A stretch of DNA of 64,000 nucleotides from an uncultured Acidimicrobiia bacterium (GTDB lineage Bacteria > Actinomycetota > Acidimicrobiia > Spongiisociales > UBA5794). A model generated the notes under the pieces. That model was not told the DNA's origin and ran no database searches. It saw only the letters and a list, made by a program, of their open reading frames with translations. Of the stretch, positions 16,022 through 58,020 are shown one piece after another (within the stretch, counting starts at the first letter, position 1; each line of letters begins with the position of its first letter). Location of the stretch: the NCBI GenBank assembly GCA_964195545.1, contig CAXMQQ010000005.1, positions 278 through 64,277 of the forward strand. The letters run 5' to 3'. The translations under genes were made by a program, and so were the position numbers.

Positions 16022-17038
16022 ATGAGTACCCCACGCGATACCGGCGTCGAACTCGGCGCAGCTAACGAACTCGCCGACCGGATCGGTTGGAGGGTTACGT
16101 CGACGTGGACGGAAGACGTGATCGGCGGCTTCGGTGGTTTCGCAGCCGGGATCCGCGTCCCTCCCGGGTATCAGATGCCGGTGTTGATGATGTCAACGGA
16201 CGGCGTCGGCACGAAAGCCGAGATCGCACGGGTCACCGGCCTCATCGAAGGACTCGGCTACGACCTCCTGGCGATGGTGGGCGATGACCTCGCCGCCGCC
16301 GGGGCGATCCCCATCGCGATGCAGGACTACATCGCCGTTGAGTACCTGGACCTAGATCGCGTCGACCTCCTCGTTGAATCGATCGCAAACGCCTGCGCCG
16401 ACAACGACGTGGCGCTGCTCGGCGGTGATACGGCCGAGCATCCAGGGACAATTGAACGGGATCACTTCGATCTCGCCGCAACAGCACTGGGAATCGTCGA
16501 ACTCGGAGACGAGATCGACAACAGCCGGATCGAGGTTGGTGACGTGGTCATCGGTGTACACAGCCCCAATCTCCGATCGAGCGGCTTCTCTCTTGTACGA
16601 GCGCTGATCGTCGACCAACTCGACCTCGACGCTCCATTCCCGGGCTCGGACCTCACTGTCGCTGAGACCCTGCTCCAACCGTCCATCGTCTACGCACCCG
16701 CTGTCATGAACGCCCTCGCGCGATCCGAAGCCCACGGGTTGGCTCACATCACGGGAGGCGGTCTGCCCAACAACGTCGGCAGAGTCCTCCCGAAAGGAAC
16801 AGCGGCCGACATCGAACGTTCCCGTTGGACAACTCCGGATGTCTTCGGTGTCATCCAGGATCTCGGATCGGTCGCCGATGAGGAGATGCTGTGGACCTTC
16901 AATATGGGTATCGGTTTCGTCGCTATCGCCCCCGAGGGCGATGCTGACCTGCTCATCAAAGGGTTTGATTCCTATACGCTCGAAGCCACCGTGATCGGCC
17001 GAATCGTAGAAGGTGACCAGACGGTCAAGATCAGCTGA
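16022..17038 (+). CDS. purM: phosphoribosylformylglycinamidine cyclo-ligase (AIR synthetase)
   Basis: GGFGGF and MSTDGVGTK motifs with PurM-typical length. Confidence 0.92.
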   Translation: MSTPRDTGVELGAANELADRIGWRVTSTWTEDVIGGFGGFAAGIRVPPGYQMPVLMMSTDGVGTKAEIARVTGLIEGLGYDLLAMVGDDLAAAGAIPIAMQDYIAVEYLDLDRVDLLVESIANACADNDVALLGGDTAEHPGTIERDHFDLAATALGIVELGDEIDNSRIEVGDVVIGVHSPNLRSSGFSLVRALIVDQLDLDAPFPGSDLTVAETLLQPSIVYAPAVMNALARSEAHGLAHITGGGLPNNVGRVLPKGTAADIERSRWTTPDVFGVIQDLGSVADEEMLWTFNMGIGFVAIAPEGDADLLIKGFDSYTLEATVIGRIVEGDQTVKIS

Positions 17039-27563: not shown

Positions 27564-27809
27564 CTAGGTCAGGATGTCCCTCAGGGGCACCGCTATGTCC
27601 TCATACTCGGCGTGGCGACCGGTCTCCGCTTTCGAATAGATAAGACGGTCGTCGAGCATGACCTCAAACCGCCCGCCGCTCGACGGGATCAGGATAAGGC
27701 GGTCAATGATTCGCTCGAACTCGTCGAGCAGCTGATCGGCCGTGCGCACGGCACGGTTCCGATAGCCTCAAACGGCGCAGTATTCAATGCTGAGATTCAT
27801 GACGATCAT
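27564..27809 (-). CDS. Rdx/SelW-like selenoprotein; in-frame TGA at 27770..27768 read as Sec (CxxU)
   Basis: The track ORF 27564..27749 is only the C-terminal part. Extending upstream in frame gives M(IVM)NLSIEYCAV-TGA-GYRNRAVRTADQLL...GGRFEV...IYSK. ATG is at 27809 or 27800. CAVU aligns with the Rdx family CxxC/U redox motif. Confidence 0.8.
27735..27763 (-). other. candidate bacterial SECIS hairpin for the Rdx gene
   Basis: Minus-strand ATCGG-aa-CCGTGC [CGTGC] GCACGG-CCGAT starts 8 nt after the U of UGA. The apical loop lies 21-25 nt downstream. Confidence 0.55.
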
Positions 27810-32550: not shown

Positions 32551-33411
32551 CTAGGGTGCTCCAACATCGACGATCTCGTCGACCTTCCGGTCCCGGAACC
32601 CGGCAGTCACGTTCTTCACCGTGAGGACGATGAAGAAGATGGCGATCGGGATGACGGCCATCGTTGCCGAGCCGGACGTGTTGGCGTGATACGAGATGAT
32701 CAGACCCACGACCACTGAGAAGACACCTATCAGCGCCGCCACAGTCATCATCGCGGGCACTCGACGCACAAGCAGAGCCGCCGTCGCCGGTGGTCCGACC
32801 AACAGGCCGAACACGAGAAGCGTCCCAACGGTCTGGAATGATCCGACGATCGACAGCACGATGAGTCCGAGCAGCAGCACGTGCGTCACACCAGGACGAA
32901 GGCCGTACAGCTGCGCTTTCTGTTCATTGAACGACAGGACCAGGAAGTGCCGGTAGAAGAGCACGGATGTTCCGATGGCGACCACCGTGATGACGGCCAG
33001 GACAATCAGATCGGTCTGCGTGACGCCGAGTACGTCGCCGAAGAGAATCGCGGTGAGGCTCCCGCTGTACGAGGCCGACTTCGAGATGAGAATGACACCG
33101 AGCCCCAGCATTCCCACGAAGAGCAGTCCGATTCCCGTGTCCTCCGAAAACGTCGTCTGCCGGTGGACGAGGTTGATGCCCCAGATCATGACGAGTGCAG
33201 CAATCGCCGCACCGATGAGCGGGTTGAATCCGATGAGGATGGCGAGGGCGATTCCTGGGATCACACCGTGAACGAGAGCGTCACCGAGGAAGGTCATCCC
33301 CCGAATGACCACCCAGGTCCCGACGACCGAAGTGGTGAGTGCCGCGAGCGAACCCGCAAGCAGCGCCCGCTGCTGGAACGCCAGTTCGAAGGGAGCGGTC
33401 AGGAACTCCAT
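32551..33411 (-). CDS. znuB: metal (Zn/Mn) ABC transporter permease, ABC-3 family
   Basis: 286 aa with 8-9 TM segments and the ABC-3 family pattern (FLGDALVHGVIPG). Confidence 0.85.
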   Translation of the reverse strand: MEFLTAPFELAFQQRALLAGSLAALTTSVVGTWVVIRGMTFLGDALVHGVIPGIALAILIGFNPLIGAAIAALVMIWGINLVHRQTTFSEDTGIGLLFVGMLGLGVILISKSASYSGSLTAILFGDVLGVTQTDLIVLAVITVVAIGTSVLFYRHFLVLSFNEQKAQLYGLRPGVTHVLLLGLIVLSIVGSFQTVGTLLVFGLLVGPPATAALLVRRVPAMMTVAALIGVFSVVVGLIISYHANTSGSATMAVIPIAIFFIVLTVKNVTAGFRDRKVDEIVDVGAP

Positions 33412-33451
33412 GCGATTTCCACGGTAGGCCTGGCGTCGATGATGGCAGGCG

Positions 33452-33532
33452 GACAGCAGACAGCAGACAGCAGACAGCCAGATGCCGGTGACAGAGAGTC
33501 TGGCTGTCTGCTGTCCGCTGTTGTCTGTCGTC
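33452..33532. repeat. heptad-built long inverted repeat: (GACAGCA)x3 GACAGCC, a 22-nt loop, then GGCTGTC TGCTGTC CGCTGTT GTCTGTC
   Basis: Read directly between znuA and znuB. The first 14 nt of the arms pair perfectly and the next 14 pair at about 5 of 7 per heptad. Confidence 0.85.
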
Positions 33533-33539
33533 TCATATA

Positions 33540-34463
33540 TCAGTCCAACGCTTCGGCTATCCGGCGCGCGTTCGATCGCAGCAGGCCGACCAGTGTGTCG
33601 CCTTCGGTTCCCGGTTCGCCGAGGGAACCCGTGTACAACTCAACGACCTCGATCCCGTGGCCAACTTCGGCGGCGACGGTGCGAGCGAGCACGTCGGACT
33701 CGACCGTTTCGGTGAAGATGGCAGGAACCTGTTCGCGTTCGATGGTTTCCACGAGCGACGCAAGTTCGGCAGATGAGGGATTCGCGAGCGTCGCGCCACC
33801 AGGGATCACTCTCCCGATCATCTCGAAGTCGTAGCGATCGGAGAAGTACCCGAATGCCCCGTGATTCGTAACCAGTTTGCGGTCGGCGGCCGGCACAACG
33901 GCAAGCATCTCGATGCTCTCCTCATGAACCCGATCCAACTCAACAACATATGCCTCTGCGCTCGCGGACCAGTCTCGACCAGGCGCTATCTCGGAGAGGT
34001 GAACGGCAAGGAGTCGGGCGGCGTCGATGTCCCGCAAGGGATCGAGCCAGAAGTGAGGGTCGAGATTCCCGTCGTCGTGCTCGTCGGCATCCGGGGCTTC
34101 CGCGAAGTGCCGCGGGTTGATGTCCGGCCCGACCTCCCAAACTCGAACACCGTCGGCGGCCGCGGCATCAAGAACGTCGCTCAATCCGTCTTCGAGACCG
34201 AGTCCGCTCGCAACGACAAGATCGGCCCTCTGGATGGCTGCGACTTGTTGAGCAGACGCGTGGAAGTCGTGCGGGTTCACGCCGACCGGCATCAGGACGA
34301 CGACCTCGCCCGCATCACCGACCACACTCTGCGCCAGATCCCCCAAAACCGTCGTGGTAGCAACGACACGGACGCCCGCGTCGTCGTCAACGCCGGACTC
34401 GCATCCAGCAAGTGTCAGCAGCGTGAGCGCGGCAACAGCGATCACCGCTGCGAATCTCTTCAC
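33540..34463 (-). CDS. znuA: metal ABC transporter substrate-binding lipoprotein (ZnuA/TroA family)
   Basis: Lipobox LTLAGC, His/Asp-rich loop (EAPDADEHDDGNLDPHFW), and NHGAFGYF. Start re-set to GTG 34463 after AAGGAG. The track ORF extends to 34808 through the zur antisense strand. Confidence 0.82.
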   Translation of the reverse strand: MKRFAAVIAVAALTLLTLAGCESGVDDDAGVRVVATTTVLGDLAQSVVGDAGEVVVLMPVGVNPHDFHASAQQVAAIQRADLVVASGLGLEDGLSDVLDAAAADGVRVWEVGPDINPRHFAEAPDADEHDDGNLDPHFWLDPLRDIDAARLLAVHLSEIAPGRDWSASAEAYVVELDRVHEESIEMLAVVPAADRKLVTNHGAFGYFSDRYDFEMIGRVIPGGATLANPSSAELASLVETIEREQVPAIFTETVESDVLARTVAAEVGHGIEVVELYTGSLGEPGTEGDTLVGLLRSNARRIAEALD

Positions 34464-34479
34464 TCCCGACTCCTTGCAT

Positions 34480-34502
34480 ATAATGAGAATGGTTCCTATT
34501 AT
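34480..34502. promoter_or_regulatory. putative Zur box ATAATGAGAATGGTTCCTATTAT in the divergent znuA / zur promoter region
   Basis: AT-rich imperfect palindrome (arms match 8 of 10) in an otherwise GC-rich context, centred between the two starts. Confidence 0.55.
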
Positions 34503-34532
34503 CAACGCAACGCTATCAGTAAGCATCCGGTA

Positions 34533-34967
34533 ATGCAACACGTCGAGCAATCCGTCGAACAGCGTCTCGCTCAGGAGGGCATCCGCTTCACACAAGGGCG
34601 GAGAAGCACCGTCGAAATGCTGTCGACGATGCACGGGCCTCGCGCGGCGGCAGAGATCCACAATCGACTCGGCGGCACAGTCCCCCTGTCCTCGTTGTAC
34701 CGATCGCTGTCGGTTCTCACCGAGGCAGGCGTCCTCTCCGCGCAGCACGGATCCGACGGAGTCATCAGATTCGAGCTCGCAGAGTGGATCACCGGTCACC
34801 ACCACCACCTCGTCTGCACATCATGTGGGGCGGTTATCGACGTGACTCCATCCAGCGACCAGGAAGAAGCGATGGAGCAACTTGTTGAGAACATGGCTCA
34901 TGAAGTCGACTTCGTCGTATCGGGCCACCGATTCGAGATCGAAGGGACGTGCAACGCATGCCGGTAA
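34533..34967 (+). CDS. zur: Fur family transcriptional regulator, Zur-like
   Basis: 144 aa with a winged-helix N-terminus, HHHHLVCTSCG and CNAC (two CxxC pairs). Located in the zinc-transporter locus. Confidence 0.85.
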   Translation: MQHVEQSVEQRLAQEGIRFTQGRRSTVEMLSTMHGPRAAAEIHNRLGGTVPLSSLYRSLSVLTEAGVLSAQHGSDGVIRFELAEWITGHHHHLVCTSCGAVIDVTPSSDQEEAMEQLVENMAHEVDFVVSGHRFEIEGTCNACR

Positions 34968-35809
34968 ACCCGCCCGCCGTCATCGCTGCGAACGTTGTGT
35001 TCAAGTACGGAACGCGCACCGCCGTCGCCTCGTCCTCCTTCTCCATCCCCGAGGGCAGCATCACGGCAATCATCGGCCCGAACGGTTCCGGGAAGTCGAC
35101 GATGCTCAACGGAATCGCCGGACTGGCTCAACCCTCCTCCGGCGCCATCGAGGTGCTCCCGATCGGCGAACGGCGGCGGCGCGTCTCCTACGTGCTCCAG
35201 ACCACCAAGGTGAACGAGTCCCTTCCCATCACCGTTCGTGAAGTCGTCACGATGGGCCGGTACCCGTCGGCCGGCGCATACGGTCGGTTGAAGGATGCGG
35301 ACCGAACTGCCGTCCAGGCGGCTATGGATCGAATGGAGATTAGCGACCTCGCCGATCGCCATCTCACGGAACTCTCCGGTGGGCAACGACAACGGGTCTT
35401 CGTGGCTCAGGGCCTCACCCAGGATCACGAAATGCTGCTCCTCGACGAACCTCTCACCGGTTTGGATATCACATCCGCTCACGCCATCGACGACGTCATC
35501 CACGAGGAGCAGACCCACGGTTGCACGATCGTCCTTACGACGCACGACCTGACGTCCGCTCAGGTTGTGGACCATGTTGTTCTGATGTCTGGCCGTGTCG
35601 TGGCATCGGGTGCGCCGGATGAGGTCCTCACCGAGGAGCACCTACGTGCTGCGTATGGCCCGAGTCTCATCCACGTCGAAGGAACTCGGCTGTTTCTCGA
35701 TGATCCGATCCACCGTTCGACGGATCCTCGCCATGACCATCAGGATCGTTCTATCCATCTCGAGGTCTCTCCGACGGGTCAGCACGGTGGTGAGGACATC
35801 CCTCATTGA
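34958..35809 (+). CDS. znuC: metal ABC transporter ATP-binding protein
   Basis: Walker A GPNGSGKST, signature LSGGQRQR and Walker B LLLDEP. His-rich C-terminal extension. Overlaps the zur stop by 10 nt. Confidence 0.88.
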   Translation: MPVNPPAVIAANVVFKYGTRTAVASSSFSIPEGSITAIIGPNGSGKSTMLNGIAGLAQPSSGAIEVLPIGERRRRVSYVLQTTKVNESLPITVREVVTMGRYPSAGAYGRLKDADRTAVQAAMDRMEISDLADRHLTELSGGQRQRVFVAQGLTQDHEMLLLDEPLTGLDITSAHAIDDVIHEEQTHGCTIVLTTHDLTSAQVVDHVVLMSGRVVASGAPDEVLTEEHLRAAYGPSLIHVEGTRLFLDDPIHRSTDPRHDHQDRSIHLEVSPTGQHGGEDIPH

Positions 35810-38725: not shown

Positions 38726-39778
38726 ATGAGCTCTGTACGGGTGCGCACTGGCTTAGGAGTCCTGGGCCTGGCTGTGCTCGTCACGGCAGTGGCGGCTGTG
38801 CTGATGAGAGCACCGTCTCAGACCGGCGGTCCTCTTGCGCAGACCCCGACGCCCGATATCACAGTTGTCCGGAGCCATCCCGGCGACGTGTACGACCCGG
38901 TGAAAGCAGGAGAACCGACCCCTCCCGGGTACCGGCAGCTACTGCATCGGGATCAGATCCTGCCCGTATACGACCCGGTCTTCACGTCCGCCAGCCTGGT
39001 CGACTGGCCTGCCGGGATGCTGGTCATTGGGATCGCCGGAGAAGAGACAGCGAAGGCATACCCGGTGACCCACCTGAACCAGAGAGAGATGGTGATCGAC
39101 TCCCTGGAGGGCACACCGCTGCTGGTCAGTTGGTGACCGATTTGCGGTACGGCGATGGTCCATCGCCGAGAGCTCAACGGCGCCGTGCTCACGCTTGGCA
39201 ATCAAGGTGCCCTCTGGGGCAACGCCATGACGTGGTGGGACCACGACACCGGATCTATCTGGAGTCAGCCGCTCGGCGAGGCGATTCTGGGACCGAGGAA
39301 AGGGGAACGGCTAGAGCTCTTCCCTTCGACACTCACCACATGGGAAGCCTGGCTGGGAGCCCACCCCGAGTCGTTCGCCCTCGATGTACACGCATGGCGA
39401 ACAGCGTTCGATCTGGCAGACATGGCGATCGTCGTCGACCTGGGTACGGAGACCGTCGCATACCGGATACCCGCTCTTCGGGAGATCGGCGTTGTCAGCG
39501 ACGTCGTCGCAGGCCTCGAGATTGCCGTGGTGATCGATCCAAATGACGCGGCACGGTGGGCGGTGTTCAGCAGACGAATCGACAGTGCGGTGGTCGACTT
39601 GGTCCTGACTCCTGATGGTCTCGTCGATTCGGTATCTGGAACCGTATTCGATCCGTTCCTCGGGGTCGGACGATCCGGATCACTCGCCGATCAGACTCTA
39701 AACAGGCTGCCGGGTTTCACTTCGTTCCCGGACGACTACGTGGCGTTCTTCCCTGACGGCCGGATTTGGCCCGAATAG
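38726..39778 (+). CDS. DUF3179 domain protein with in-frame TGA at 39134..39136 (candidate Sec, UPIC in place of CPxC)
   Basis: Track ORFs 38726..39136 and 39155..39778 are in the same frame. The joined translation ...AKAYPVTHL...GTPLLVSW-TGA-PICGTAMVHRRELNG...LWGNAMTWWDHDTGSIWSQPLGEA matches the DUF3179 core. N-terminal signal/anchor present. Confidence 0.7.
39150..39168 (+). other. candidate SECIS hairpin for the DUF3179 gene
   Basis: C-GGCGATG [GTC] CATCGCC-G starts 17 nt after the U of UGA. G/U bases in the apical loop lie about 24 nt downstream. Confidence 0.45.
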
Positions 39779-43192: not shown

Positions 43193-43491
43193 TTGCCCTC
43201 CATATACGTAGTGAGCGCTCGTGCGCTCACACTGCTCCAAATGGTACTCCCGATTCAGTATTGTGACTAGGTCAATGTCGCTTTTATCGGTGCTCGGCGC
43301 GTCTTGACGGACTCAGTGACGGGCCAACGCTCGCGGAGCAACAGCACACCGCGTTGAATCTCGTTCCCGGGGTTCGGGCTACGCTGCGTATCGCTCACGA
43401 CCGCTGACATTCCTCGATGACGCTCGGTGCGAAGAGAACCGCTCCGGCGGTGGATACGGTAGTGGTGAACAGGTCGGAGAAGGGGCGCCTG

Positions 43492-45366
43492 ATGGCGAAC
43501 ACACGAGCGAGATGGCTGACCGCGGCGGTCGGCGCACTTCTCGTGGCTGGCATGGTCCTGGGAGGGTTCCTTCTCTTCAATTCCGGCGAGGACGAGACCG
43601 TCTGTCCCCCGATCCACGAGCATCCAGAGTGGTCGGTGGCCCGCCGTTGGAATGAGGTTCTCCTCGATGCCATTCGCCGAGATCTCCCTGCACCGACGGT
43701 CCACAGTCGAAATCTCTATCACACCTCGACAGCGATGTGGGATGCCTGGGCCGCCTACGACTCGAAGGCCATTGGTATATTTGTCGATGAACAACAGGGC
43801 ACCTCGAACGTCGATGCCGATCGCGACGAGGCCGTCAGCTATGCCGCTTTCCGGGTACTCGAGGCCCGCTACCTCGATTCGGTCGGCGCGACCGAAACGA
43901 TCCCCGAGTTCGACCGACTCATGGAAGACCTCTGCTACTCGACCGACGTCACAACAACCGCGGGAGATACCCCCGCGGCGCTTGGGAATCGAATCGCTGG
44001 GTTCATCCTCGATTCGGGGGTGGCCGACGGCTCCAACGAGGCCGAGGGATATGCTTCCCCGGGCTTCGACGTTGTCAATCCACCACTCATCGTCGACGCG
44101 TCCGGAACGACGCTGATCGATCCGAATCGCTGGCAGCCCCTCCAGATCCAGCACATGATCTCGCAGAACGGGATCGAGCTCGAGAACGGTGTCCAGGAGT
44201 CCATCGATCCGCATTGGGGCCATGTGGTTGGATTCGCGCTTCCGCCGGCTGGCGAGACCGGCGTACCGGTCGACCCGGGCGATCCTCCGTACGCCCATGA
44301 TCCCGAGACCGATCAGGAGTACAAGGACGCGGCGGTTGAGGTCGTTGGCTACAGCAGCGTGCTCGATCCCACCTTCGGCGTCATGGTGGACATCTCGCCC
44401 GCCACGGTCGGCGCCAACTCGCTCGGAACAAACGACGGTACCGGATACGACGTCAACCCGGCGGCCGGGGTGCCGTACGAACCCAACATCGTCAACCAGG
44501 GAGACTTCGGGCGAACCGTCGCCGAGTTCTGGGCCGACGGCCCCGACTCGGAGACACCGCCGGGTCACTGGAACACGGTGGCCAATGCTGTCACCGAAGC
44601 ACTCGGCGAGAACCTGCGCATCGGAGGGACCGGCGAACCCGTCGACGCGCTGGAATGGGACGTCAAGCTCTACCTCGCCCTGAACGGTGCGAACCACGAC
44701 GCAGCGATTGCCGCGTGGGGTGCCAAGGGCTACTACGACTACATCCGCCCTATTTCGATGATTCGATGGATGGGCGGCAACGGTCAATCGAGTGATCCCG
44801 ATGGCTCGTCGTATTCCGAGGATGGCCTCCCGCTCCAGGACGGTCTCGTCGAGGTGATCACCGCTGAGTCGACGGCTCCTGGTGGGCGTCACGCTGAACT
44901 TGCCGGCCATGAGGGCGAGATTGCGGTCCTGTCCTATGCGGGAAATCCGCCGGATCCCGAAACCGAGATCGGCGGCGTGGAATGGATCCTCGCGATCGAC
45001 TGGGTTCCGTACCAGGCTCCGACGTTCGTCACACCGTCGTTCTCCGGATACGTGTCTGGCCACAGCACGTTCAGTCGGGCGTCCGCCGAGGTCCTCACCG
45101 GCATCACCGGCAGTGAGTTCTTCCCCGGAGGACTCGGCGAGTGGGGCATCGCGTCCGACTCGCTCAAGTTCGAAGCCGGGACCGCGAACGGTATCACACT
45201 GCAGTGGGCGACCTACCAGGACGCGTCGGATCAAGCTGGCGTATCGCGGCTCTACGGCGGGATCCATGTCCGTGCGGATGATTTCGCCGGACGCGTGATG
45301 GGAGCTGAAATCGGGCAGGCGGCATGGGCGCTTGCACAGTTCTACTACGGAGATACCACCGAATGA
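43492..45366 (+). CDS. secreted PAP2-superfamily / vanadium-haloperoxidase-like protein
   Basis: All three PAP2 motifs are visible: KGYYDYIRP (Kx6RP), VSGHS (PSGH-like) and SRLYGGIHVRADD (SRx5Hx3D). N-terminal TM/signal. Start re-set to ATG 43492. Confidence 0.72.
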   Translation: MANTRARWLTAAVGALLVAGMVLGGFLLFNSGEDETVCPPIHEHPEWSVARRWNEVLLDAIRRDLPAPTVHSRNLYHTSTAMWDAWAAYDSKAIGIFVDEQQGTSNVDADRDEAVSYAAFRVLEARYLDSVGATETIPEFDRLMEDLCYSTDVTTTAGDTPAALGNRIAGFILDSGVADGSNEAEGYASPGFDVVNPPLIVDASGTTLIDPNRWQPLQIQHMISQNGIELENGVQESIDPHWGHVVGFALPPAGETGVPVDPGDPPYAHDPETDQEYKDAAVEVVGYSSVLDPTFGVMVDISPATVGANSLGTNDGTGYDVNPAAGVPYEPNIVNQGDFGRTVAEFWADGPDSETPPGHWNTVANAVTEALGENLRIGGTGEPVDALEWDVKLYLALNGANHDAAIAAWGAKGYYDYIRPISMIRWMGGNGQSSDPDGSSYSEDGLPLQDGLVEVITAESTAPGGRHAELAGHEGEIAVLSYAGNPPDPETEIGGVEWILAIDWVPYQAPTFVTPSFSGYVSGHSTFSRASAEVLTGITGSEFFPGGLGEWGIASDSLKFEAGTANGITLQWATYQDASDQAGVSRLYGGIHVRADDFAGRVMGAEIGQAAWALAQFYYGDTTE

Positions 45367-54488: not shown

Positions 54489-55532
54489 CCTCCCCCTGAA
54501 GACTCGCGGCGGAATTGGGGTTGGGTCGTGTCTACCCAGGGGGTGGTGTTGGTTGGGGTTAGGTGAGGGTGGCGAGTATCCCGATGGCTTTGGCGGTCTG
54601 GTCGAATGCGGCGGCGGGTCGTCGCCAGTAGGCGAGGACCCGCCAGTGTTTCATCGCCCCGATGGCGTGTTCGACCGGCATCCGGCGCGATGACAAATGA
54701 CGGTTGAAACAGCGATCTGCGTCACTGAGCGGCCCATAGCGGGTCTTGTAGACCGGAGTGACAACATTGTCGGCGCCGAGATCCTTCCACAGTGTTTGAT
54801 ATCCGCGATCGGCGAGCACTACGACCCCGGCGGTGACCGCGACCGACAGCATCGCCATCAATCCTGTCTGGGCACGCAGCATCGCAATGTCATTCGTTCG
54901 GCCGTCCCCAGAAGGGTTCGCCTCAACCCACAACGGACGCCGCGAACTGTCCGACACGACGGTGGCTTTGACGACATGGGCTTTCGTCTTCCCCGACCAG
55001 GCTTGCTTCTGATCCGCCCACAACTCGGGAGACCACCGCCGCACCTCGGTGCCGTCGATCATCACCGGATCGTCACCATGATCCTCAACATAGGCCCCAA
55101 GGTCGTCAAGGCTCCGAATCGGACGGGTCGCACCAGCGGGTTGAAACCCGTGGGCGACAAGGAGTACTTCGACTTCGTCTCGATAACGGCGCACCGAGCG
55201 TTCGTGAACACCGAAGATCCTGCCCGTCGCACGCACAGAGATACCTTGACGCAGCAACGTCAACGCCACCAACAGACGCAACCAAAACGGTTTCGGTGGC
55301 CGACCCGCACCCGGAGCACGCCGACGTCCCGGCCGATCCGCCAGGTCGCGGCGCCGCTGCTCGGCGATCGGTGCCAGCCGGATCAGCAAGTCACCGAACT
55401 GTTCCGGTGTTGTGCCACACAACTCACGAGACGGACCCAACCTGACCACACGGGTAACAGCCATACGCGGAACCTATCCAACCCGAACCCAAAACGCGAG
55501 CATCAAATACGCCGCACCTCTTGAGGGGGAGG
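54489..55532 (-). mobile_element. IS5/Harbinger-like (DDE_Tnp_4) insertion sequence, about 1044 bp
   Basis: Imperfect terminal inverted repeats: left CCTCCCCCTGAAGACTCGCGGCGGAATTG, and right (reverse complement) CCTCCCCCTCAAGAGGTGCGGCGTATTTG. The first 13 of 14 positions match and about 24 of 32 overall. One transposase ORF inside. No clear target-site duplication seen. Confidence 0.6.
54559..55464 (-). CDS. DDE transposase (DDE_Tnp_4 / PIF-Harbinger-like, IS5 family) with N-terminal HTH
   Basis: VMIDGTE...GKTKAHVVK...LADRGY...RMPVEHAIGAMKHWRVL pattern typical of this transposase family. Confidence 0.85.
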   Translation of the reverse strand: MAVTRVVRLGPSRELCGTTPEQFGDLLIRLAPIAEQRRRDLADRPGRRRAPGAGRPPKPFWLRLLVALTLLRQGISVRATGRIFGVHERSVRRYRDEVEVLLVAHGFQPAGATRPIRSLDDLGAYVEDHGDDPVMIDGTEVRRWSPELWADQKQAWSGKTKAHVVKATVVSDSSRRPLWVEANPSGDGRTNDIAMLRAQTGLMAMLSVAVTAGVVVLADRGYQTLWKDLGADNVVTPVYKTRYGPLSDADRCFNRHLSSRRMPVEHAIGAMKHWRVLAYWRRPAAAFDQTAKAIGILATLT

Positions 55533-56012: not shown

Positions 56013-57509
56013 TCACAAGGTGGCTGCCACCAGCTCGTCTTGGCTCAGCGCTGCAAGGCGTGCGACCTCGGCTGTATCGAGGCCGATCGCCTCGGCAACA
56101 CGGGTTCCGAAGTCTGGATCCACCCGGTAGAACAGAGCGGTCTGGCGAAACTGCAACCGCTTCTGCGCTCCACCGAGATGGCCGGCGATGTTGGAGACCA
56201 GGTGATCTCTGTCCGTGTCGTCCATCACATCGGAGTACAACGAACGGGGCTGCTCGTAGTCGTCGTTCGAGTGTGTGTACTCGAACCGGCCGGCCTCACC
56301 CGCAACCGTCACACCCGGCTCTGCTGCCGTGGCGTCGGGGACCGGTCCACCGAAGGAGTTCGGGTAGTAGTTCGGTCCTCCGCCATGGTTGCCATCGGTT
56401 CGCATGGAACCGTCACGCTCATAGGTCTGTGCGACGGTTCCTTTCGGCTGGTTGACCGGGATCAGCGCATGGTTCGTTCCGAGGCGATGGCGGTGCGTAT
56501 CCGGATATGAGAAGAGACGGCCCTGGAGCATCTTGTCTGGAGATGCTGCGACTCCCGGGACGAACGATCCGGGGCTAAACGCAGCCTGCTCGACCTCGGC
56601 GAAGTAGTTCTCCGGATTTCGGTTGAGCACCATCTTGCCGAACGGGATGAGCGGGTAGTCGGCGTGTGGCCAGACCTTCGTAATGTCGAACGGGTCGTAC
56701 CGGTAGTCGGCCGCGTCGGTTTCGTTCATGATCTGCACGTTGACGGTCCACGACGGGTAGTCACCGTCGGCGATCGCTCCGTACAGGTCACCGGTCGCCT
56801 GATCCGGGTCACTGGATGCCAGGGCTGCCGCCTCAGATCCGGTGAGCGTCTCGTTGCCTTGATCGGTCTTGAAGTGGAGTTTGATCCAGTACCGGTTCGT
56901 ATCGGTGTACCAGAGGTACGTGTGACTCGTGTAGCCATTCATGTGACGATACGACTTCGGTGTTCCCCGGTCGGAGAACAGGATCGAGACTTGGTGCAGC
57001 GACTCGGGGGTCAACGACAGGAAGTCCCAGAACATGTCTGGGTCCTTGAGGTTCGTTGCCGGGTTGCGCTTCTGGGTATGGATGAAGTCGGGGAACTTCA
57101 GCGGATCACGGATGAAGAAGACCGGCGTGTTGTTGCCGACCATCTCGTAGTTGCCGTCCTCTGTGTAGAACTTCACGGCGAAGCCACGCGGGTCCCGCTC
57201 GGAGTCGGCCGATCCCTTCTCCCCACCGACGGTGGAGAAGCGAACGAACAGTTCGGTCTGTTTGCCAACCTCTGAGAGGAAAGCGGCTTTCGTGTACTGC
57301 GAGACGTCTGCGGTCACCTCGAAGTAGCCGTAGGCGCCCGCACCTTTCGCATGGACGACTCGCTCCGGGATTCGTTCACGGTCGAAGTGCGCCAGTTTGT
57401 CGAGCAGATGTGTGTCCTGGATCAGGGCGGGCCCGTCGATTCCGGCGGTCACGGTGTTCTGATCGTCGGCGACGGGGCGTCCGAACGTGTTGGTCAGCTT
57501 GTCGGGCAT
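56013..57509 (-). CDS. katA: monofunctional heme catalase
   Basis: [26 protein letters not shown] and [14 protein letters not shown] catalase signatures. 498 aa. Confidence 0.95.
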
Positions 57510-57554
57510 GGGTCCTCCTCGAGCAGGCAGGTGGTCGGAACTGTGGATTGTTTG

Positions 57555-57571
57555 TTTAGACTAGTTCTAAA
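57555..57571. promoter_or_regulatory. putative Fur-family operator TTTAGA-ctagt-TCTAAA in the divergent catalase / fur-like promoter region
   Basis: 6-bp AT-rich inverted repeat with a 5-nt spacer, 30 nt upstream of the regulator start. Confidence 0.5.
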
Positions 57572-57600
57572 GTAGTACGTCTGTCCATCGGAATCGAGCC

Positions 57601-58020
57601 ATGACCGCATCCGACACCTCGCAGGTGATCCGCAACGCCGGCCTGAGAGCGACCAAGCCAAGAGTCCTCATCTACGACCTCCTCCAAGAGGCCGGTGGCC
57701 ACCGCACAGCCGACGAGGTCGCCGGGCTGGTCGTCGACAGTCGAAGGCGTCTTCCTCGTGCATCGGTATACAACGTGCTCGACGATCTGTCCAGGGTCGA
57801 CCTTGTCATGCGCGCCGATCGGGGACCGGGAACGGCGATCTACGAAGTCTCCGACACGTGGCATCACCACTTCGTGTGTCATGTGTGCGGAGAGGTAATG
57901 GACGTGGCGTGCGTGGTCGGGTCGAAGCCGTGTCTCGACGCGGACGTGCCGGGCGCCGTCATCGACGAGGCTCAGATCATCTTCCGCGGTGTCTGCGCTT
58001 CCTGCGCCGGCTCAACCTGA
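57601..58020 (+). CDS. Fur family transcriptional regulator (PerR/CatR/FurA-like)
   Basis: LRATKPRVLIYDLL, HHHFVCHVCG, and a C-terminal CASC. Divergent from the catalase gene. Confidence 0.88.
   Translation: MTASDTSQVIRNAGLRATKPRVLIYDLLQEAGGHRTADEVAGLVVDSRRRLPRASVYNVLDDLSRVDLVMRADRGPGTAIYEVSDTWHHHFVCHVCGEVMDVACVVGSKPCLDADVPGAVIDEAQIIFRGVCASCAGST

What the first reader, a model, noticed from the sequence alone, without database searches (positions are those of the whole stretch)
38726..39778. DUF3179 gene with a single in-frame TGA at the first Cys of the family CPxC motif: candidate new selenoprotein (UxxC)
Track ORFs 38726..39136 and 39155..39778 are in the same frame and are separated only by TGA (39134..39136) plus six sense codons. 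Reading through gives ...EGTPLLVSW-[TGA]-PICGTAMVHRRELNGAVLTLGNQGALWGNAMTWWDHDTGSIWSQ.... I recognise this as the DUF3179 core, where the conserved sequence is (V/T)(Y/W)-C-P-L-C-(G/N). The stop therefore sits exactly on a putative redox or metal-binding Cys, which is the classic Sec/Cys signature.

A perfect 7-bp GC hairpin (39151..39167) begins 17 nt after the UGA, placing its apical loop within the 16-37 nt window used by bacterial SECIS models. TGA serves as an ordinary stop for many neighbouring genes, so this is not a global reassignment. A second gene 11 kb away shows the same pattern. I am not aware of DUF3179 being a catalogued selenoprotein family.
Basis: partly seen in the sequence, partly recalled or inferred. 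Interest (0 to 1): 0.85.

Follow-up and report, generated by a model that had tools for sequence, protein, structure and literature searches.

The report
Known DUF3179 selenoprotein gene, mis-split
The in-frame TGA is real and almost certainly encodes selenocysteine in a DUF3179 protein of an Acidimicrobiia bacterium, but DUF3179 has been catalogued as a selenoprotein family since 2007, so this is a well-supported example of a known thing and not a new family.

Summary
Observation confirmed. ORFs 38726..39136 and 39155..39778 are one 350-codon DUF3179 gene (Pfam E=3.6e-44), interrupted only by TGA 39134-39136. That TGA sits on the first Cys of the family's conserved CxxC.

Comparative evidence for selenocysteine (Sec) is strong:
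- The same column is TGA in 79 of 83 gene copies from about 70 Acidimicrobiia MAGs. It is TGA in 113 of 114 metagenome contigs that carry the hairpin.
- The six codons between the TGA and the next ATG vary synonymously, so they are translated.
- An 8-bp hairpin (39150-39168, loop GUC) meets all four constraints of the published bacterial SECIS model.
- The hairpin's synonymous sites are frozen, whereas equally conserved residues elsewhere use 3-4 codons.
- TGA ends 29 of 44 other genes in the window, so the codon is not reassigned.
- A second selenoprotein gene (SelW-like, CxxU) lies 11.4 kb upstream.

The novelty claim fails. Two reviews (2022, 2026) list DUF3179 as a UxxC/T selenoprotein family, crediting Zhang & Gladyshev 2007. 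NCBI already names Acidimicrobiia homologues 'DUF3179 domain-containing (seleno)protein'.

No selA/B/C/D lies in the window, so the Sec machinery is untested. The protein's function remains unknown. I infer an exported two-residue selenol/thiol site on a non-thioredoxin, mostly beta fold.

The parts
38726..39778 (+). Complete DUF3179 selenoprotein gene: 350 sense codons including one UGA (Sec137), stop TAG at 39776-39778
   Evidence: frame and translation. (PF11376, E=3.6e-44). (co-linear with full-length Cys homologues).
38726..38815 (+). N-terminal basic plus hydrophobic segment (MSSVRVRTGLGVLGLAVLVTAVAAVLMRAP...), read as a signal peptide or membrane anchor, which implies an extracytoplasmic protein
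   Evidence: Read directly from the sequence. Paralogues in L068, L072, L079 and L080 carry lipoprotein-like ...AAC / ...AGC / ...TAC boxes at the same place. This is inference; no signal-peptide predictor was run.
39134..39136 (+). In-frame UGA read as selenocysteine (U137)
   Evidence: It aligns to the invariant Cys of CxxC. The column is TGA in 79 of 83 gene copies from Acidimicrobiia genomes. It is TGA in 113 of 114 metagenome contigs that carry the hairpin.
39134..39145 (+). U-P-I-C motif (UxxC), the only candidate redox or metal site conserved across the family
   Evidence: Across 107 diverse full-length representatives, Cys occupies the first position in 104 and the second in 103. Codons +1 to +4 vary synonymously among the TGA forms, so they are translated.
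39150..39168 (+). Bacterial SECIS-type hairpin: 8-bp stem CGGCGAUG/CAUCGCCG, apical loop GUC (39158-39160), 21 nt between UGA and loop
   Evidence: 99.3% of cells are paired over 74 distinct sequences. Synonymous sites are frozen: ACG 75/75, GCG 74/74, CAT 75/75, and CGC 68 / CGT 6, where the CGT variant keeps a G-U pair. MFE is -11.7 kcal/mol. It meets the four constraints of the consensus bSECIS model quoted in PMC13188914.
27564..27800 (-). Second selenoprotein gene in the window: SelW-like (Rdx / SelT-SelW-SelH family), MNLSIEYCAV-U-GYRN..., with UGA at 27770-27768 (CxxU) and a downstream stem-loop at about 27767-27730 (loop CGUGC, 27750-27746)
   Evidence: sequence. (PF10262 Rdx, E=6.2e-19). 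(TIGR02174 CXXU_selWTH, 53.5 bits against a cut-off of 34.2). (fold -29 kcal/mol, z=-2.56).

Best explanation
38726..39778 is a single gene for an exported DUF3179 protein. Codon 137 (UGA, 39134-39136) is decoded as selenocysteine, giving a U-x-x-C site in place of the family's C-x-x-C.

Decoding is directed by an 8-bp hairpin with a GUC loop that lies inside the coding sequence, 21 nt after the UGA. This is a bacterial SECIS element, which would recruit SelB carrying Sec-tRNA(Sec). Gene callers stop at the UGA and report only the 207-residue C-terminal fragment.

Shown here: the position of the UGA on the conserved Cys, its conservation, translation of the codons after it, and selection on the hairpin at the RNA level.

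Inferred: that the inserted residue is Sec, since the machinery and the protein were not observed. Also inferred: that the U/C-x-x-C pair is a selenol/thiol redox or soft-metal site acting outside the cytoplasm.
For: 1. Family and column. The gene matches PF11376 at E=3.6e-44. Cys homologues read VSW-C-PLC-GTAMVHRR. CxxC is the only such pair conserved family-wide, at 104/107 and 103/107.

2. UGA conservation. The column is TGA in 79 of 83 copies across about 70 Acidimicrobiia MAGs, down to about 53% protein identity, with TGC/TGT in the other 4.

3. Coding on both sides of the UGA. Conserved residues upstream and downstream vary synonymously. The six codons between the TGA and the ATG behave the same way: Pro CCG/CCA/CCT, Leu CTG/CTT/TTG/CTC, Cys TGC/TGT, Ala/Gly 4 codons. 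They are therefore translated in frame.

4. Hairpin under RNA-level selection. Thr+5 is ACG in 75/75, Ala+6 is GCG in 74/74, and His+9 is CAT in 75/75, whereas His+36 is CAC in 69/75. Arg+10 is CGC 68 / CGT 6, and the CGT variant is G-U compatible. Thr+32, Ala+30 and the Gly codons use 3-4 codons each. 99.3% of cells are paired.

5. The hairpin travels with TGA. Among 114 metagenome contigs with an intact hairpin, 113 have TGA and 1 has TGC. Distant Cys forms (L059, L060, L070, L083) have lost the hairpin. Close Cys forms keep it, as expected for recent Sec-to-Cys conversions.

6. The hairpin fits the consensus bSECIS model (loop 3-9 nt, stem 4-16 bp, G in the first two loop positions, 16-37 nt spacing, MFE <= -7.5). 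It has a 3-nt GUC loop, an 8-bp stem, 21-nt spacing and -11.7 kcal/mol.

7. TGA is the normal stop of 29/44 genes in the window.

8. A SelW-like CxxU gene with its own hairpin lies in the same window.

9. The family is already listed as a UxxC/T selenoprotein family. A preprint reports selA/B/C/D in all 84 complete genomes of Actinomarina, another genus of the class Acidimicrobiia.
Against: - No tRNA-Sec, selA, selB or selD was found in the window. The one AIR-synthase-like gene (16022-17038) is purM. None was found in about 2 Mb of fetched related loci either.
- The hairpin shows no compensatory (both-sides) changes, so the structure is supported by frozen synonymous sites rather than by covariation.
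- In the single sequence the fold is not better than shuffles (z=-1.2).
- No protein-level evidence for selenium exists.
- NCBIfam has no model that hits this protein.
Confidence: 0.9

Rival explanations
1. UGA read-through without selenocysteine. A near-cognate tRNA (Trp or Cys) decodes UGA-C, and the downstream hairpin stimulates read-through by stalling the ribosome or hindering release factor 2.
For: The Sec machinery was not observed in the window or in the fetched loci. The base after the UGA is always C, which from general knowledge is a weak termination context. The comparative data prove translation through the UGA, but not the identity of the inserted residue.
Against: The UGA replaces a Cys of CxxC exactly, which is the classic Sec/Cys pair. 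The hairpin meets every bSECIS constraint, including the loop G-U. A SelW-like CxxU gene in the same window shows the same arrangement. The family is already catalogued as a selenoprotein family. Other Acidimicrobiia carry selABCD.
Confidence: 0.05
2. A genuinely split gene. The TGA is a true stop, and the conserved ATG at 39155 restarts translation, giving a 136-residue and a 207-residue polypeptide that assemble.
For: The ATG six codons downstream is present in 73/75 TGA forms. Public gene callers annotate exactly this 207-residue product.
Against: The Met is equally conserved in the uninterrupted Cys forms, so it is a family residue and not a start signal. The six codons between TGA and ATG are conserved as amino acids with synonymous variation, including the second Cys of CxxC. 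That would be pointless if they were untranslated. The split would also delete half of the only conserved site.
Confidence: 0.03
3. A pseudogene, or a sequencing or assembly error that created a premature stop.
For: A single in-frame stop in a MAG-derived contig is the usual appearance of such errors.
Against: The same TGA occurs at the same codon in 79 of 83 independently assembled copies and in 113 further metagenome contigs. There are no additional disruptions, and both halves are under purifying selection.
Confidence: 0.01

Closest known systems
DUF3179 domain-containing selenoprotein family (PF11376, motif UxxC/T), listed in PMC9312934 Table (2022) and PMC13188914 (2026) and credited to Zhang & Gladyshev, NAR 2007 (Olavius algarvensis symbiont metagenome)
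   Same: Same Pfam family, same Sec position (first residue of CxxC), one Sec per protein, and a SECIS-like stem-loop directly downstream of the UGA.
   Different: The original description came from deltaproteobacterial worm symbionts. The clade here is Acidimicrobiia (Actinomycetota), where the Sec form is the majority (79/83), often has several paralogues per genome, and keeps an almost invariant SECIS sequence. I could not check which of the 2007 paper's provisional names (OS_HP1 or OS_HP2) corresponds to DUF3179.
Consensus bacterial SECIS (bSECIS) model of Zhang & Gladyshev, as summarised in PMC13188914
   Same: A stem-loop inside the coding sequence just 3' of the UGA. It has a 3-nt loop starting G-U, an 8-bp upper stem, 21-nt spacing and MFE -11.7 kcal/mol. 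All four constraints are met.
   Different: The hairpin is very short and compact, with no evident conserved lower stem or bulge. SelB binding has not been tested.
SelW-like / Rdx family selenoproteins (PF10262, TIGR02174 CXXU_selWTH)
   Same: This is another small redox-motif selenoprotein encoded in the same window (27564..27800, -). Its UGA sits in a CxxU motif and is followed by a hairpin. It shows that the organism carries more than one Sec-type gene.
   Different: It is an unrelated fold and family. The Sec is the second residue of the motif (CxxU rather than UxxC), and the protein has no signal sequence.
Rieske [2Fe-2S] ferredoxin fold (e.g. PDB 2qpz, 5bok)
   Same: These are the best, though weak, structural matches of the AlphaFold model of a Cys homologue: E=0.033, target TM about 0.6 over about 95 columns. 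More than 25 of the top 50 hits are Rieske domains.
   Different: No hit reaches E<=0.001. The CxH...CxxH ligand set is absent, and the two His residues near the CxxC are not conserved across the family. This is a resemblance in fold only, not membership.

Membership tests
DUF3179 (Pfam PF11376) | Match to the family HMM above the gathering threshold | tested here: met
   151.8 bits against a cut-off of 27, E=3.6e-44. All 27 aligned homologues also match.
DUF3179 (Pfam PF11376) | Conserved (W/Y/F)-C-P-L-C core with downstream R, D and T | tested here: met
   The window reads SW-U-PIC...R148...D172...T175. The family columns are C 104/107, C 103/107, R 104/107, D 106/107 and T 99/107.
Bacterial selenoprotein (Sec decoded at UGA) | In-frame UGA aligned to Cys in homologues (Sec/Cys pair) | tested here: met
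   TGA in 79 copies and TGC/TGT in 4, at one column.
Bacterial selenoprotein (Sec decoded at UGA) | Coding sequence conserved on both sides of the UGA in the same frame | tested here: met
   Synonymous variation at conserved residues from codon -25 to +59, including codons +1 to +4.
Bacterial selenoprotein (Sec decoded at UGA) | [quoted passage not shown] | tested here: met
   Loop GUC, 8 bp, 21 nt, -11.7 kcal/mol. Criteria are quoted from PMC13188914. Conservation is shown. bSECISearch itself was not run.
Bacterial selenoprotein (Sec decoded at UGA) | Genome encodes tRNA-Sec (selC), SelA, SelB and SelD | not testable with these tools
   None is in the 64-kb window or in about 2 Mb of related loci. 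Indirect support: a second selenoprotein gene in the window, and selABCD reported in Actinomarina.
Bacterial selenoprotein (Sec decoded at UGA) | Selenium demonstrated in the protein (75Se labelling or mass spectrometry) | not testable with these tools
   This needs an experiment.
Thioredoxin-fold thiol/selenol oxidoreductases | Thioredoxin-like alpha/beta fold carrying the CxxC/UxxC | tested here: not met
   The AlphaFold model (pLDDT 87) is almost all beta. No thioredoxin-fold protein appears among the Foldseek PDB hits. No Trx-type Pfam family matches, even at E<=10.
Rieske [2Fe-2S] proteins | CxH ... CxxH cluster ligands | tested here: not met
   Only CxxC is conserved. The nearby His146 and His173 are His in only 20/107 and 34/107 family members. 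The fold match is weak (E=0.033).
SelW-like / Rdx selenoproteins (for the second gene, 27564..27800) | Rdx HMM match with UGA at the U of CxxU | tested here: met
   PF10262 E=6.2e-19. TIGR02174 scores 53.5 bits against a cut-off of 34.2. The sequence is YCAV-TGA-GY.

The most novel reading that the evidence does not exclude
In sediment and marine Acidimicrobiia, DUF3179 is a dominant selenoprotein. It is exported (signal-anchored or lipoprotein) and has expanded into several paralogues. Its U-x-x-C site sits on a non-thioredoxin, Rieske-like beta fold. That would make it a so-far uncharacterised class of extracytoplasmic selenol-based redox or soft-metal (Cu/Hg)-handling protein in a monoderm lineage. 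Its SECIS has been frozen at the nucleotide level across a whole class.
Probability: 0.3. Interest if true: 0.45.

Novelty: already known. Interest (0 to 1): 0.2.

Why it matters
The value is mainly practical. This gene and more than 100 relatives are present in public databases only as 206-208-residue C-terminal fragments, because gene callers stop at the Sec codon. DUF3179 is therefore systematically mis-annotated in Acidimicrobiia.

The data also show that the window's organism almost certainly decodes Sec, since the 64 kb holds two selenoprotein genes. They provide a very clean example of a SECIS element that constrains synonymous sites inside a coding region.

This does not add a new selenoprotein family. 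The biochemical role of DUF3179 remains open.

Tried and rejected
1. Sec machinery.
- ARAGORN and Rfam on the window found no tRNA-Sec.
- Pfam/NCBIfam annotation of about 50 window genes found no SelA, SelB or SelD. The AIRS/AIRS_C protein at 16022-17038 is PurM (TIGR00878, 297 bits), not SelD.
- ARAGORN on 60 loci, and later on all loci, found nothing.
This is a weak test because the queries came from memory.

2. Exact look-up of the window's 207-aa product in the look-up of encoding contigs returned nothing. The identical protein, P0271, turned up later through the cluster listing.

3. Covariation test of the hairpin. There are no both-sides changes, so classical covariation gives no support. 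I used synonymous-site freezing instead.

4. Conserved operon partners. There is none for the window's copy, whose neighbours are an LPG_synthase_TM membrane protein and a convergent sugar-type ABC transporter. Redoxin plus DsbD_TM (CcdA-like) genes occur about 3 kb away in 10-11 of 80 loci but on the opposite strand. That is suggestive at most.

5. Cys2His2 metal site (C137, C140, H146, H173). Rejected, because the His residues are not conserved across the family.

6. PDB sequence search found no hit. Foldseek against PDB gave only weak Rieske-like hits. Foldseek against viral structures gave one uncharacterised giant-virus protein, which is uninformative.

7. NCBIfam has no model for this protein.

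8. Sub-threshold Pfam hits on the CPxCG knuckle (DUF7340, HMBD, Zn-ribbons) were judged not significant.

Full report
**1. The observation**

The window sequence and the ORF list show two + strand ORFs, 38726..39136 and 39155..39778. They share a frame and are separated by TGA (39134-39136) and six sense codons. Translation through the stop gives a 350-codon product...EGTPLLVSW*PICGTAMVHRRELNG..., ending at TAG 39776-39778. With Cys in place of the stop, the protein matches Pfam DUF3179 (PF11376) at E=3.6e-44, 151.8 bits against a gathering score of 27.

The hairpin is also there, but it is 8 bp rather than 7. It runs 39150-39157 (CGGCGAUG) paired with 39161-39168 (CAUCGCCG), with loop GUC at 39158-39160. 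It contains A-U pairs, so it is not a pure GC hairpin. In the single sequence its folding energy is unremarkable (z about -1.2 against shuffles). By itself it would not be evidence.

**2. Is the TGA on the conserved Cys?**

A search of 5.8 billion proteins returned two kinds of close hits. The first kind is full-length proteins of 300-390 residues. These read ...VSW-C-PLC-GTAMVHRREL..., which places an invariant Cys at the TGA column and a second invariant Cys three residues later. The second kind is about 80 fragments of 206-208 residues that all start MVHRRE.... That is exactly what a gene caller produces when it stops at the same TGA and restarts at the next ATG.

A profile search of 1.84 billion cluster representatives found 11,144 family members. 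In an alignment of 107 diverse full-length representatives, the two Cys are present in 104 and 103 sequences. Three sequences have Ser at each position.

**3. Conservation of the TGA**

A scan of one genome per species returned 80 loci. Most are labelled Acidimicrobiia, Acidimicrobiales or Ilumatobacteraceae MAGs. A few carry other labels, which I take to be mis-binning. Protein identity to the window runs from 94% down to about 53%.

Reading the DNA at the motif gives TGA in 79 of 83 gene copies and TGC/TGT in 4. At least 12 MAGs carry two or more copies. In L011 and L082 a Sec form and a Cys form sit in tandem.

This rules out a sequencing error or a decaying pseudogene. No further disruptions are seen. 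Conserved residues on both sides of the TGA show ordinary synonymous variation.

Crucially, the six codons between the TGA and the downstream ATG behave the same way. Pro uses CCG/CCA/CCT, Leu uses CTG/CTT/TTG/CTC, Cys uses TGC/TGT, and Ala/Gly use four codons. They are therefore under protein-level selection and must be translated, so the ribosome reads through the TGA. The Met that gene callers use as a start is equally conserved in the uninterrupted Cys forms. It is a family residue, not a start signal.

**4. The hairpin**

Among the 75 TGA-containing sequences analysed, the stem codons are frozen at their synonymous sites:
- Thr+5 is ACG in 75/75.
- Ala+6 is GCG in 74/74.
- His+9 is CAT in 75/75, although the other conserved His (+36) prefers CAC in 69/75.
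- Arg+10 is CGC in 68 and CGT in 6, and the CGT variant keeps a G-U pair.

Equally conserved residues outside the stem (Thr+32, Ala+30, many Gly) use three or four codons.

On the alignment, 99.3% of cells in the 8 pairs are standard pairs. That compares with 13-59% when the partner is slid by 1-3 columns. There are no both-sides compensatory changes. The support therefore comes from suppressed synonymous change rather than from covariation.

The hairpin travels with the TGA. A metagenome scan used a pattern that fixes the hairpin but allows TGA, TGC or TGT. It gave 113 TGA and 1 TGC among 114 distinct contigs, many of them labelled as marine-sediment metagenomes. Among Cys forms, the close ones (L011, L081, L082, L084) still carry the hairpin, as expected for recent Sec-to-Cys conversions. 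The more distant ones (L059, L060, L070, L083) have lost it.

The element meets all four constraints of the consensus bacterial SECIS model as quoted in PMC13188914. The model requires a loop of 3-9 nt, a stem of 4-16 bp, a G in the first two loop positions (usually followed by G or U), a spacing of 16-37 nt, and MFE <= -7.5 kcal/mol. Here the loop is GUC, the stem is 8 bp, the spacing is 21 nt, and the MFE is -11.7 kcal/mol.

**5. Not a code change, and not alone**

TGA terminates 29 of 44 Pfam-supported genes in the window.

It reads MNLSIEYCAV-TGA-GYRNRAV..., a CxxU motif. It matches PF10262 at E=6.2e-19 and TIGR02174 (CXXU_selWTH) at 53.5 bits against a cut-off of 34.2. A strong stem-loop starts directly after its UGA (-29 kcal/mol, z=-2.56), with loop CGUGC 17 nt from the UGA. 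Two independent Sec-type genes within 64 kb argue that the organism decodes Sec.

**6. What could not be shown**

The window holds no tRNA at all and no Rfam family at gathering score. None of about 50 annotated genes is selA, selB or selD. The AIR-synthase-like gene at 16022-17038 is purM.

About 2 Mb of related loci also hold none. The one SelB-like hit is TypA.

Indirect support comes from a 2026 preprint reporting selA, selB, selC and selD in all 84 complete genomes of Actinomarina, another genus of the class Acidimicrobiia.

**7. What the protein may do**

This section is inference. The N-terminus is a basic plus hydrophobic segment, and several paralogues have lipoprotein-like boxes there. 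The protein is therefore probably extracytoplasmic.

An AlphaFold model of a Cys homologue is confident (pLDDT 87) and almost entirely beta. It has no sequence relative in the PDB. Its best structural matches are weak but consistent hits to Rieske ferredoxin domains (E=0.033, target TM about 0.6). It is not a thioredoxin fold. It also lacks the Rieske ligands.

The two His residues near the CxxC in this clade are not conserved family-wide, whereas R148, D172 and T175 are. The conserved site is thus a two-residue (seleno)thiol pair. My preferred reading is a selenenylsulfide-forming redox site or a two-coordinate soft-metal site.

Gene neighbourhood gives little. The window's neighbours are an LPG-synthase-type membrane protein and a convergent ABC sugar transporter. 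In 10-11 of 80 loci a Redoxin and a CcdA-like DsbD_TM gene lie about 3 kb away on the other strand. Single loci show a MauE/DoxX gene or a CsoR-type repressor next door.

**8. Comparison with what is known**

DUF3179 (PF11376) is listed as a prokaryotic selenoprotein family with motif UxxC/T in the 2022 review PMC9312934 and the 2026 review PMC13188914. Both cite Zhang & Gladyshev 2007 (PMC1976440). NCBI names Cys-form homologues from Ilumatobacteraceae and Acidimicrobiia 'DUF3179 domain-containing (seleno)protein'.

What public data do get wrong is the gene model. The window's own product exists in the collection only as an unnamed 207-residue fragment (P0271, 100% identical, on an NCBI contig of 65,044 bp).

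**9. Verdict**

This is a real, well-supported selenocysteine codon with a bona fide SECIS-type hairpin, in a member of an already known selenoprotein family. Confidence in Sec decoding is about 0.9.

The remaining alternatives are non-Sec read-through (about 0.05), a split gene with reinitiation (about 0.03), and an error or pseudogene (about 0.01).

Novelty is 'already known', and interest is low (0.2). The modest added value is the scale of Sec use in Acidimicrobiia DUF3179 genes, the frozen SECIS, and the systematic mis-annotation.

Noticed in passing
window 27564..27800 (-): SelW-like/Rdx selenoprotein gene with an in-frame TGA (27770-27768) in a CxxU motif and a strong downstream stem-loop. 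ORF listing gives only a 61-aa fragment (27564..27749).
   Followed up: yes
L022, L026, L029, L030, L037-L039, L041, L044, L047-L049, L051, L052, L054, L057, L058, L064, L067, L077, L078 (e.g. L022 10900..11448 +): In 22 related loci the DUF3179 gene is followed on the same strand by a conserved polytopic membrane protein of about 181 aa that typically ends ...QLGHLL. Its start overlaps the DUF3179 stop, which suggests translational coupling. It has no Pfam hit (tested on L058:10690-11469). It is absent downstream of the window's copy.
   Followed up: partly
L011 (10364 and 11516), L082 (298 and 1425), L045 (3455 and 10265), L100 (two matches): Several DUF3179 paralogues occur per locus or genome. 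L011 and L082 have tandem pairs of one Sec form and one Cys form. At least 12 MAGs have two or more copies.
   Followed up: partly
window 32551..35809: A ZnuA/ABC-3/ABC_tran metal (Zn/Mn-type) uptake transporter lies 3-6 kb upstream of the DUF3179 gene. Its ZnuA has an N-terminal extension of about 147 residues. No link to DUF3179 was established.
   Followed up: no
window 56013..58020: A catalase gene (56013-57509, -) is divergent from a Fur-family regulator (57601-58020, +), which looks like a PerR/Fur-type oxidative-stress pair.
   Followed up: no
window 54559..55464 (-): A DDE_Tnp_4 transposase (an IS element) sits among housekeeping genes.
   Followed up: no
window 43267..45366: Two long overlapping ORFs lie on opposite strands: 43267-45267 (-, 666 aa) and 43417-45366 (+, 649 aa). 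The minus-strand ORF has no Pfam hit, and which of the two is the real gene was not resolved.
   Followed up: no
window 39155..39778 and P0271: The window's source appears to be an NCBI contig of 65,044 bp on which this gene is called only as an unnamed 207-aa fragment. About 80 of the 120 best database hits are equivalent truncated fragments.
   Followed up: yes
model of P0002 (homologue of window 38726..39778): The AlphaFold model is nearly all beta. Its best PDB matches are Rieske ferredoxin domains, but weak ones (E=0.033). One uncharacterised giant-virus protein (Indivirus A0A1V0SD44) matches at E=1e-8.
   Followed up: partly
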